Positions 6,643 to 8,898 of a stretch of 8,898 nt of DNA are shown here, piece after piece (within the stretch, counting starts at the first letter, position 1; each line of letters begins with the position of its first letter). Below the pieces are notes generated by a model. The model searched no databases and was not told the DNA's origin. It worked only from the letters and a program-made list of their open reading frames with translations. The stretch lies in IMG/VR virus record IMGVR_UViG_2657245544_000004. One strand, written 5' to 3'. A program made the translations under genes and the position numbers. This DNA comes from a virus. Lineage: Duplodnaviria; Heunggongvirae; Uroviricota; Caudoviricetes.

Positions 6643-8553
6643 TCACTCCTCCGGACAGCTTCGCTGCCAGTTCTTCAAGGGTCGGTTGTGCAGTTGCATC
6701 CTTGCGGGATGCAACTGCACAGCCAGATCAAGTTGCCAGCGTTGCACGGACACACGTAATGCCGCATAGGCATACACCAGGCAGTCCAGCGCTTCGTTAC
6801 GCCGCTTTTTGTTATCCCACAACAGACGCATCTTTCCTTTTTCCCACTTTTCCACCAGTTCCTCCGCCACCAGTTGTTGTGCCTCTGTCTGCGAAAAAAT
6901 CTCCGGATTATCAGGAAAGCGGATGGCATACGATGTGGCCTCATTCACAGGGGTGGGATCGGCCTTCATTCGGGCATAGAGAATTTCTTTTGCGGTATCC
7001 GTCCCCACCTCACACAGATACACACCCCGCTGATTGCGGGTTTTCGGCATGGTGATCACCGGCTTGCCATAGACAGAGGCACCTTTTACCGGCAGTACCC
7101 GGAAAATACCGTGTTTTTTTGACCTCTGATACACGATTTCGCCATCGATCCCCCCGATATCCCAGCAGACACGGGAAATGGTCATTTCGGTACCGTCTGC
7201 ATGGCGGTATTTTTTATTGATCGCCGCATCCACACGTAACAGCGTCTCTTCCTCATCAGGACGTCCCATGATGATGATTTTATCCACCAGAAAGGCTTCC
7301 TCTCCCGGAGCCCACCCCCAGACATACATCTCAAAACGGTTTCGCTGCGAGTCAATGCCCGCCGTCAGATAAACCACCCGGACAGGCACCGTTGCCGTGT
7401 AAGGCACAACCTTATCCATCAGTACCTGGTGATCGAGTTTTTCGCCCACGGCCTCTTCCCAGGTCTCGCCCAGCGTGGTGTTCACAAAAGTTTTCACGCC
7501 GTTGGGATCTTTCAGTGCATCCAGCCAGTCACAGACTATCTGTACCCTGGTGGTGAACGGACTGTACGCCGTCCATATATGGAAAGTGATGGAGCGCGGC
7601 GGCGGAATTTCATTACCCGAAGCACTGAAAAACGTCAGACCGTCACACGTCCACATCCCGGTATTGTCACAAATCCAGCGCCCCCCGGTCTGATCAAGTT
7701 CAGACTGACGGATCACGCAGCCATTATGTTCACACAGGTAATACACCGTTTCCGGTTTACCCTTCTCCCATTTCAGGCCAAACGACGTCGCATCATCGCC
7801 AAACTTCAGATACTGCTCCTCCCCGCAATGAGGGCAAGGGACATAAAACCGCATGAAATGCGCAGATTCATTCGCAGCTTTTTCAATCTGACAGGAGCCT
7901 TTAATTTTTGGCGTTGAACCGCGTATGGATTTTGGCCATACCGAACCTTCAATACGTTTATCGCCAAGCAGTGTTGGCGAACCTTCTTTTTCCACATCCG
8001 GTTCAAACGAGGAGAGTTCGTCATAGCAGACCACATCGACAGATTTTTCACGGTAGTTTTTGGCAGCAGCACCACCCAAACACCAGAACCCCACACCAGA
8101 GGAAAAACGCTTCAGTGTGAGCGTATTATCCCGGTGTTTCCGGCCCAGCCAGGGAGAAAGTTTTTTCAGGCAAGGAACATCACGAATTGTTGCTTCCACG
8201 TGAGACTTCATAAAATCTTCAGCAGCTGAGTCCGTCGGCTGAAAAAGAAGAGTGTTGCGGGATTTGTGCTCAATAAAATACCCGATCACACCAAGCACCA
8301 TTTTTGTATAACCAACACGGGCAGATTTAATCAGGTTAACTGTACGAATCTCGTCATTGCCCATGCAGTTCATGATGGCGACCTGAAACTGCAGCGTTTT
8401 CCATTCCCCCTCACCGTATGACGATTCTTTAGGCAGGTAATAATTTTGATCGGCCCATTCTACAGCCGTCACCGGCAATACCCTGACCAGTGGCTGCAGT
8501 GCGATAGTGACTGCCACCATCATATTACTCAGTTGTTGTTCTGATATATTCAT
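6643..8553 (-). CDS. A: Terminase large subunit, gpA-like
   Basis: The track ORF begins at a TTG (8608-8610), but the ATG at 8551-8553 (MNIS...) aligns with the lambda gpA N-terminus (MNIS). That gives 636 aa against about 641 in lambda. Extensive conserved blocks: TAVEWAD.NYYLPKES, KSARVGY.KM (ATPase P-loop region), NTLTMKRF, FWCLGG.AAKNYREKSVDV, GSPT.LGDKRIEGSVWPKSIRGSTPK, HFMRF.V.CPHCGEEQYLKFGD, HIWTAYSPFTT, KTFVNTTLGETWE, LTAGIDSQ, KKHG.FRV.P.KGASVYGKPV, WD.KKRRNEALDC.VYA.AALR.S.RWQLDL. Confidence 0.95.
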   Translation of the reverse strand: MNISEQQLSNMMVAVTIALQPLVRVLPVTAVEWADQNYYLPKESSYGEGEWKTLQFQVAIMNCMGNDEIRTVNLIKSARVGYTKMVLGVIGYFIEHKSRNTLLFQPTDSAAEDFMKSHVEATIRDVPCLKKLSPWLGRKHRDNTLTLKRFSSGVGFWCLGGAAAKNYREKSVDVVCYDELSSFEPDVEKEGSPTLLGDKRIEGSVWPKSIRGSTPKIKGSCQIEKAANESAHFMRFYVPCPHCGEEQYLKFGDDATSFGLKWEKGKPETVYYLCEHNGCVIRQSELDQTGGRWICDNTGMWTCDGLTFFSASGNEIPPPRSITFHIWTAYSPFTTRVQIVCDWLDALKDPNGVKTFVNTTLGETWEEAVGEKLDHQVLMDKVVPYTATVPVRVVYLTAGIDSQRNRFEMYVWGWAPGEEAFLVDKIIIMGRPDEEETLLRVDAAINKKYRHADGTEMTISRVCWDIGGIDGEIVYQRSKKHGIFRVLPVKGASVYGKPVITMPKTRNQRGVYLCEVGTDTAKEILYARMKADPTPVNEATSYAIRFPDNPEIFSQTEAQQLVAEELVEKWEKGKMRLLWDNKKRRNEALDCLVYAYAALRVSVQRWQLDLAVQLHPARMQLHNRPLKNWQRSCPEE

Positions 8554-8848
8554 CGAGTAAATCCGGTAATTTATCCCCCGCACGCGCGCACTGATTCGCT
8601 CCCTTAGCAATAAGGATTTTCAGATGATCAATATGACGCGGCGTTAAATCCGGGAACTGTCGTTGCATGGACAAAGGAATGGAGTCAAGCGTACTGGATA
8701 AAGCCATCGCCAGCTTACTAAGGGCAAAAATACAAAATCCGGTATCGATAAGATTTCCTTTTGACACCTGATTTTTTAACTGCTGTGCGACAGCCTGTTC
8801 TGCGGTCAGTTCCCATCTGGCAATGAGTAGTTTGAGGTGTACTGGCAA
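8525..8848 (-). CDS. nu1: Terminase small subunit gpNu1-like, C-terminal (gpA-interacting) portion only; N-terminal region not resolved in this frame
   Basis: 107-aa ORF that aligns to the C-terminal roughly 90 residues of lambda Nu1 by recall (AQ.LKN, FC.F.LS..A....S.LD..PLS.QR.FP.L..RH.D.LK, LP.LL.EYI). It overlaps the A start by 29 nt, as in lambda. The track's first codon is a TTG, and an in-frame TAG (plus 8858-8860) lies 3 codons upstream of it. Confidence 0.8.
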   Translation of the reverse strand: MPVHLKLLIARWELTAEQAVAQQLKNQVSKGNLIDTGFCIFALSKLAMALSSTLDSIPLSMQRQFPDLTPRHIDHLKILIAKGANQCARAGDKLPDLLDEYIRTTTE

Positions 8849-8898
8849 TAGCGGACACTACCATTTGTTCTTTTTTTAAGCAGCCATCTGATGATATT

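What the first reader, a model, noticed from the sequence alone, without database searches (positions are those of the whole stretch)
8525..8898. Nu1 homologue loses frame where its N-terminal DNA-binding domain should be
The region with clear Nu1 C-terminal homology (8525..8848) is preceded in-frame by a stop (plus 8858-8860, minus TAG) only a few codons upstream, where lambda Nu1 continues for about 90 more N-terminal residues. A different minus frame at the window edge reads NIIRWLLKKR, which loosely resembles the lambda Nu1 segment VIKWYAERD. That suggests a frameshift and/or small deletion between the N- and C-terminal parts. Only about 50 nt are visible, so this is tentative. If real, the small terminase subunit would lack its cos-binding domain. 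Together with the portal frameshift this would point to a decaying prophage; otherwise both are sequencing artefacts.
Basis: partly seen in the sequence, partly recalled or inferred. Interest (0 to 1): 0.45.

Follow-up and report, generated by a model that had tools for sequence, protein, structure and literature searches.

The report
IS600 insertion truncates prophage Nu1 gene
The small-terminase (Nu1) gene of this lambda-like prophage stops looking like Nu1 because the last 66 bases of the window are the end of an IS600 insertion sequence that landed in codon 68, which is ordinary decay of a Shigella cryptic prophage and neither a frameshift nor a sequencing error.

Summary
Nu1 C-terminal homology is present, there is an in-frame TAG at 8858-8860, another frame reads NIIRWLLKKR, and there is a T7 run at 8871-8877. 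The interpretation of a frameshift or small deletion is wrong.

Window 8833-8898 is 66/66 identical to the right end of IS600 (IS3 family): the last six transposase codons (...YHQMAA), their stop (8876-8878) and the terminal inverted repeat ending ...CCTCA. The TAG, the T7 run and NIIRWLLKKR all lie inside IS600.

Nu1 sequence begins at 8832, at codon 68 of an intact 169-aa homologue that is 99.8% identical in DNA. The remnant keeps the core and TerL-binding part and lacks the N-terminal DNA-binding part.

The same junction occurs in at least 25 independent assemblies. Three of them match the window exactly over all aligned bases. In sister genomes the first 205 nt of nu1 (through codon 68) sit on the other side of IS600 with a 3-bp AAC duplication, which marks a simple insertion. 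In the window's own lineage IS600 abuts a truncated Rz gene. There the end of Rz, cos and Nu1 codons 1-67 are deleted.

The portal frameshift and a gpA C-terminal frameshift are also real. This is a decaying prophage, ordinary and essentially known.

The parts
8833..8898 (-). Right-terminal 66 bp of insertion sequence IS600 (IS3 family), in the same orientation as nu1. It holds the last six transposase (OrfB) codons ...YHQMAA (8879-8896), the stop TAA (8876-8878), the A7/T7 run (8871-8877), and the imperfect terminal inverted repeat (about 8833-8861) ending ...ACACCTCA. The rest of the element lies beyond the window end.
   Evidence: 66/66 identity to IS600 copies annotated 'IS3-like element IS600 family transposase' in RefSeq E. 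coli genomes, in many different flanking contexts. A full 1264-bp IS600 sits at this junction in L010, L011, L012, L014 and L019.
8858..8860 (-). It lies inside the IS600 terminal inverted repeat and is not a mutation of nu1.
8830..8832 (-). AAC, the right-hand copy of the 3-bp target-site duplication made when IS600 inserted into nu1 (codons 68-69 of the intact gene).
   Evidence: In L016 and L017 the left flank reads ...GAAGAGAAAC|TGAGG (IS600) and the right flank CCTCA|AACTACTC. The intact gene reads GAAGAGAAACTACTC.
8525..8832 (-). 3' remnant of the small terminase subunit gene nu1: codons 68/69-169 plus the stop at 8525-8527. It encodes the helical core/self-association region and the TerL(gpA)-binding C-terminus. 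The N-terminal DNA-binding part (codons 1-67) is missing.
   Evidence: 99.8% DNA identity to the intact 169-aa gene of E. coli FDAARGOS_943, starting exactly at 8833. Pfam PF07471 profile positions 85-163 only. PHROG 57 profile positions 87-189 only, whereas the intact homologue covers 12-189. Protein alignment with lambda Nu1.
6643..8553 (-). Terminase large subunit gene (A homologue). Its ATG at 8553 overlaps the end of nu1. The last ~30 codons are out of frame relative to intact relatives and to lambda.
   Evidence: A 1-nt deletion near 6716 relative to L009. The C-terminus reads ...RWQLDLAVQLHPARMQLHNRPLKNWQRSCPEE*, against ...RWQLDLAVLAASRKDATAQPTLEELAAKLSGGVNGYSR* in L009 and the lambda-like tail.

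Best explanation
The window is the head/packaging block of a lambda-like cryptic prophage of the Shigella flexneri type, read on the minus strand (U, Z, FII, FI, E, D, C, B, W, A, nu1'). An IS600 element transposed into nu1 between codons 68 and 69 and duplicated AAC. The window ends 66 bp inside the right end of that IS600.

What remains downstream (8525-8832) is the 3' 60% of nu1. It encodes the core and gpA-binding part of the small terminase, without the N-terminal DNA-recognition part. In the lineage the window belongs to, the DNA to the left of IS600 was then lost. The loss came either from an IS600-adjacent deletion or from recombination with a second IS600. As a result IS600 now abuts nucleotide 401 of the spanin gene Rz. 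The end of Rz, the genes between Rz and cos, the cos site and nu1 codons 1-67 are gone.

Shown: the IS600 identity, the junction position, the AAC duplication in sister genomes, and the Rz|IS600 joint without a duplication in genomes identical to the window. Inferred: that the window's own source has the Rz|IS600 joint beyond base 8898, and the order and mechanism of the deletion.

Functionally the prophage cannot recognise or cut its own DNA for packaging. It also carries frameshifts in the portal gene and in the gpA tail.
For: The homology break falls exactly at 8833/8832 in megablast against phages and E. coli genomes. Query bases 66-599 match intact nu1-A at up to 99.8%. Bases 1-70 match multi-copy IS600, up to 43 places per genome.

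The IS end ...CCTCA was defined from copies with different flanks.

The exact 40-nt junction is found in S. flexneri SFBU1023 and 'E. coli' ECMA0423. The exact 107-aa ORF is listed in 362 index blocks; 25 contigs were read and 10 loci fetched. The window is 100% identical to L011, L013 and L019 over all aligned bases.

Type B loci (L016, L017) show nu1 nt 1-205 | IS600 | AAC..., which is a 3-bp duplication, and keep the cos region upstream.

Type A loci (L010-L015, L019) show Rz nt 1-401 | IS600, with flanks GGG and AAC and no duplication. They contain no match to nu1 nt 1-204, or to any of the intact relative's DNA from the end of Rz up to nu1 (the stretch that carries cos), within 6 kb.

Domain content comes from Pfam and PHROG coverage. 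The TerS domain order (N-terminal DNA binding, helical core, C-terminal TerL binding) is from PMC4669245.
Against: Only 66 bp of IS600 are inside the window, so the state of the far side in the window's own source is inferred from genomes that are identical over the shared ~8.8 kb.

The window carries a run of 77 N (3458-3534) that those genomes lack, so its source is not literally one of them.

The one-base ambiguity at the junction (the A at 8833 could belong to IS600 or to nu1) is resolved only by the IS600 consensus end.
Confidence: 0.95

Rival explanations
1. One reading: a frameshift and/or small deletion inside nu1 joins an N-terminal part (read as NIIRWLLKKR) to the C-terminal part. 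Alternatively, a homopolymer sequencing error at the T7 run does so.
For: A stop lies a few codons upstream of the homology. Another frame is open to the window edge. A T7 run is present.
Against: Bases 8833-8898 are 100% IS600, including the T7 run and the TAG. The frame that is actually coding there is the transposase C-terminus. The missing N-terminal 67 codons of the intact homologue (VATQTEVARHLSLTDRQL...) have no counterpart in any frame of 8833-8898. The junction is identical in at least 25 assemblies.
Confidence: 0.01
2. Simple IS600 insertion only: in the window's source the nu1 5' part and cos still lie just beyond IS600 (the type B arrangement), so nothing but the insertion has happened.
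For: This arrangement exists in L016 and L017, with the AAC duplication.
Against: The window carries the 1-nt deletion near 6716 in gene A. That deletion marks the type A loci: A is 636 aa and ends just before W. Type B loci have the 642-aa form. The window is 100% identical to type A loci and differs at 10-12 mismatches plus one 1-nt gap from type B loci over the first 5.4 kb of the comparison (nu1 remnant through C, up to the N run).
Confidence: 0.04
3. Natural short Nu1: this phage type encodes a roughly 100-aa small terminase starting near 8848, with a separate upstream gene.
For: Gene callers annotate the 107-aa ORF as a gene in many assemblies.
Against: The putative TTG start and the first five codons lie inside the IS600 inverted repeat. 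Intact relatives at 99.8% and 88% DNA identity, including PhiR12_1, deposited as a complete phage genome with E. coli K-12 MG1655 as host, encode a continuous 169-aa protein. No promoter-like site was found in 8400-8898.
Confidence: 0.005

Closest known systems
IS600 (IS3 family insertion sequence of Shigella / E. coli, 1264 bp)
   Same: The 66 bp at the window edge are identical to the IS600 right end. Full 1264-bp copies occupy this junction in sister genomes. They have TGAGG...CCTCA ends, a two-ORF transposase with programmed frameshift, and a 3-bp target duplication.
   Different: Nothing unusual. Only the terminal 66 bp are inside the window. In some genomes the copy is itself interrupted by a 1310-bp IS that I take to be IS629 from memory of its ends and OrfA.
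Lambda gpNu1 / TerS (Pfam PF07471, PHROG 57)
   Same: The remnant aligns with lambda Nu1 residues ~84-181 at 43% identity in the MAFFT alignment. Conserved motifs include ...TxFCxFxLS... and ...PLSxQRxFPxL..RH.D.LK... The gene order nu1-A-W-B-C-D-E is as in lambda.
   Different: The N-terminal DNA-binding part is absent from the remnant. In the intact homologue that part is shorter (67 aa) and too divergent for the Pfam model. It is still recognised by PHROG 57 (E 2e-11).
IS-riddled cryptic lambdoid prophages of Shigella flexneri
   Same: A lambdoid late region is broken by IS600 and IS629 and carries additional frameshifts. It is conserved across many S. flexneri-type chromosomes.
   Different: None found. 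I did not locate a paper that discusses this particular junction.

Membership tests
IS600 (IS3 family) | Terminal sequence identical or near-identical to the IS600 reference ends (TGAGG...CCTCA imperfect inverted repeats) | tested here: met
   66/66 identity to annotated IS600 copies. IRL TGAGGTAGCCTGAGTTTAACGGACACT and IRR (reverse complement) TGAGGTGTACTGGCAATAGCGGACACT.
IS600 (IS3 family) | OrfA/OrfB transposase with rve (DDE) integrase core, made by programmed frameshift | tested here: met
   Only the last six codons are in the window. In loci sharing the junction the adjoining ORF hits HTH_21, rve, rve_2 and rve_3. RefSeq annotates 'programmed frameshift'.
IS600 (IS3 family) | 3-bp target-site duplication on simple insertion | tested here: met
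   AAC is present on both sides in L016 and L017. It is absent (GGG versus AAC) in the window's lineage, which indicates a secondary deletion.
Nu1-type small terminase (PF07471 / PHROG 57) | Sequence match above the curated threshold | tested here: met
   PF07471 at 68.8 bits against a cut-off of 30. PHROG 1790 E 1e-61 and PHROG 57 E 1e-37.
Nu1-type small terminase (PF07471 / PHROG 57) | N-terminal DNA-binding (winged HTH) domain that recognises cosB | tested here: not met
   The remnant covers only profile positions 85-163 (Pfam) and 87-189 (PHROG 57). Codons 1-67 are replaced by IS600. It is therefore a gene fragment and not a functional family member.
Nu1-type small terminase (PF07471 / PHROG 57) | Position immediately upstream of, and overlapping, the large terminase gene A | tested here: met
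   The A start at 8553 overlaps the nu1 stop at 8525-8527, as in lambda and L009.
Functional cos-packaging prophage | cos site upstream of nu1 | tested here: not met
   In type A loci identical to the window, only Rz nt 1-401 of the intact relative's 3.2 kb from Rz up to nu1 (the stretch that carries cos) finds a match within 6 kb upstream, and the lambda-type cosN core GGGCGGCGACC is absent. A cos region aligning with lambda cos is present in type B loci and in the intact relative. This cannot be tested in the window itself.

The most novel reading that the evidence does not exclude
The N-terminally truncated Nu1 would be translated from the TTG in the IS600 inverted repeat or by read-through from the IS600 transposase transcript. 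It would be retained because it poisons the terminase of superinfecting lambda-like phages. It keeps the self-association and gpA-binding parts and cannot bind cos, so it would act as a dominant-negative decoy, a domesticated anti-phage fragment.
Probability: 0.02. Interest if true: 0.5.

Novelty: already known. Interest (0 to 1): 0.08.

Why it matters
It matters little beyond correct annotation. The end of the window should be labelled as the IS600 right end, and 8525-8832 as a nu1 pseudogene fragment, not as a frameshifted gene or a sequencing error.

It is a clean small example of stepwise prophage decay in Shigella: an IS600 insertion with an AAC duplication, secondary IS629 hits, at least two different losses on the left side of IS600, and frameshifts in the portal gene and in gpA. 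The different left-hand junctions could serve as lineage markers for S. flexneri.

Tried and rejected
1. Frameshift or small deletion: rejected by the 66/66 IS600 identity.

2. Sequencing or assembly artefact: rejected. The same junction and the same portal T6 run occur in many independent complete genomes.

3. Looked for the junction in 5426 complete E. coli genomes. None has it: the best places cover only bases 66-599. It was found only in Shigella-type chromosomes.

4. Sequence search of the intact homologue against PDB chains gave no meaningful hit and did not recover the lambda Nu1 N-terminal domain structure. NCBIfam gave nothing. PHROG 57 did connect the N-terminal 68 aa to Nu1-type TerS.

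5. An exact search for the lambda cosN core (GGGCGGCGACC) found it only in lambda and PhiR12_1. The closest intact relatives have a variant (GGGGCGGGAGCGGCGCAG) at the aligned position.

6. A promoter and terminator scan of 8400-8898 found nothing, so there is no support for expression of the remnant.

7. Literature search for this specific junction found no paper discussing it.

8. I did not run structure prediction, because the question was settled by DNA identity.

Full report
**Observation**

On the minus strand the window ends with AATATCATCAGATGGCTGCTTAAAAAAAGAACAAATGGTAGTGTCCGCTATTGCCAGTACACCTCA|AACTACTCATTGCCAGATGGGAACTGACC....

- The frame with Nu1 homology has an in-frame TAG at 8858-8860 and a further TAA at 8876-8878.
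- Another frame reads NIIRWLLKKR.
- Plus 8871-8877 is T7.

The mechanical ORF 8525..8848 (107 aa) hits Pfam Phage_Nu1 at 68.8 bits against a cut-off of 30. The hit covers only profile positions 85-163 of 164.

**What the edge really is**

Megablast of 8300-8898 against phage records and against 5426 complete E. coli genomes splits the query at one point:
- Bases 66-599 (window 8833 downwards) match nu1-A of lambda-like prophages. Identity reaches 99.8% with E. coli FDAARGOS_943, where the small terminase gene is an uninterrupted 510-nt ORF of 169 aa.
- Bases 1-70 match a multi-copy element, with up to 43 places per genome.

Searching 8828-8898 alone gives 100% matches in about 2770 genomes. 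All are annotated 'IS3-like element IS600 family transposase' and sit next to many different genes.

Comparing copies with different flanks fixes the IS end at ...GCCAGTACACCTCA, which is window 8833. The transposase CDS ends at query base 23, so the coding frame at the window edge is ...YHQMAA-stop.

The TAG, the T7 run and the NIIRWLLKKR reading are therefore all native IS600 sequence. The resemblance to lambda VIKWYAERD is coincidence.

**Where nu1 is cut**

The intact gene reads ...GAT TAT GAA GAG AAA CTA CTC ATT GCC AGA TGG.... The window resumes at AAC TAC TCA..., that is, at codon K68/L69. Codons 1-67 are missing.

Alignment with lambda Nu1 places the remnant opposite lambda residues ~84-181.

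PHROG 57, the lambda Nu1 family, covers the intact homologue end to end (profile 12-189). Its first 68 residues alone match profile 12-87 at E 2e-11. The remnant covers only 87-189.

By the established TerS domain order, the N-terminal domain binds DNA, the helical core follows, and the C-terminus binds TerL (PMC4669245). The remnant therefore lacks the cos-recognition part.

**Beyond the window**

An exact 40-nt junction search found S. flexneri SFBU1023 and 'E. coli' ECMA0423. The exact 107-aa ORF is on record in 362 index blocks. The 10 loci fetched are Shigella-type chromosomes. The window is 100% identical to L011 (CP012735.1), L013 and L019 over every aligned base.

Three arrangements exist to the left of the same right-hand junction:

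*Type B (L016 = CP000266.1, and L017).*
- It reads nu1 nt 1-205 | IS600 | AAC + nu1 nt 203 onward.
- The 3-bp AAC duplication is the signature of a simple IS600 transposition.
- The cos region upstream is kept and aligns with lambda cos.
- IS600 is itself split by a 1310-bp element with TGAACCGCCCCGGG ends. I take this to be IS629 from memory of its ends and OrfA.

*Type A (L010-L015, L019, which is the window's lineage).*
- It reads Rz nt 1-401 | IS600 | 'nu1.
- The flanks are GGG and AAC, so there is no duplication.
- Within 6 kb upstream there is no match to nu1 nt 1-204, and only Rz nt 1-401 of the intact relative's DNA between Rz and nu1 (the stretch that carries cos) is found.

*L018.* It has a third left flank.

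The simplest history is one IS600 insertion into nu1, followed by independent losses anchored at the IS600 left end. Whether each loss was an adjacent deletion or recombination with a second IS600 cannot be decided from these data.

**Why the window is type A**

The window carries a 1-nt deletion near 6716. This changes the last ~30 residues of gpA and makes A end just before W. That is exactly the pattern in type A loci (A 636 aa) and unlike type B loci and the intact relative (642 aa with a lambda-like tail). The window differs from type B loci at 10-12 mismatches plus one 1-nt gap over the first 5.4 kb of the comparison (nu1 remnant through C, up to the N run) and from type A loci at none.

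**Artefact or decay**

All twelve Shigella-type loci share it, and gene callers split the portal in all of them where it was called.

With the IS600 junction and the gpA tail frameshift, the packaging module carries at least three independent lesions. These are real lesions and not sequencing errors.

**Expression of the remnant**

The TTG at 8848 and the first five codons lie in the IS600 inverted repeat. No promoter-like site was found in 8400-8898. A dominant-negative role for a DNA-binding-less Nu1 is conceivable but has no support here.

**Verdict**

This is an ordinary IS600-disrupted pseudogene in a cryptic lambdoid prophage of S. flexneri type. Novelty: already known in kind. Interest is low.

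Noticed in passing
window 3458-3534: There is a run of 77 N inside the C (S49 protease/scaffold) gene. All close relatives have only 10 bases here (GGAGAATGCC). The N run is therefore an assembly gap or a masked stretch of a different length. It artificially shifts the frame of C, giving a listed ORF of 489 aa ending at 3390 instead of 501 aa.
   Followed up: partly
window 5449-5454: The portal gene B is split into ORFs 5387-6442 and 4849-5472 by an extra base in a homopolymer. The minus strand has T6 where the intact E. coli relative has T5. All twelve Shigella-type loci share it, so it is real and predates the split between the type A and type B arrangements.
   Followed up: yes
window about 6713-6716: A 1-nt deletion plus three substitutions lie near the 3' end of terminase large subunit gene A. 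They replace the last ~30 residues, which in lambda form the C-terminal prohead-binding tail (from my own knowledge). This is specific to the type A lineage.
   Followed up: partly
L006/L007 (positions corresponding to window 7955 and 7828): SFBU1023 and ECMA0423 carry a +A and a -T 127 nt apart in gene A, relative to the window and to intact relatives. Gene A is called as two pieces in ECMA0423 (L015). These are either further decay or assembly errors in those genomes.
   Followed up: no
L007 1935-3225; L016 3623-4932: The IS600 at the nu1 junction has itself been hit by a 1310-bp IS629-like element at two different positions in different lineages. One is at IS600 nt ~377, with a CAA duplication. 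The other is at nt ~181-184. These are independent secondary insertions.
   Followed up: partly
L005 2067-2074 and L004 2067-2070 versus window 8826-8832: Unrelated IS600 copies are also followed by AACT (L004: AACTGAG) or AACTACT (L005: AACTACTG), like the window's AACTACTC. This may reflect a target-sequence preference of IS600 or may be coincidence.
   Followed up: no
L009 4900-5145, L016 3000-3247: The intact relatives have a variant cosN region (GGGGCGGGAGCGGCGCAG) at the position aligned with lambda GGGCGGCGACCTCGCGG. Their Nu1 N-terminal domain is too divergent for the Pfam model. Together these suggest a packaging specificity different from lambda's.
   Followed up: no
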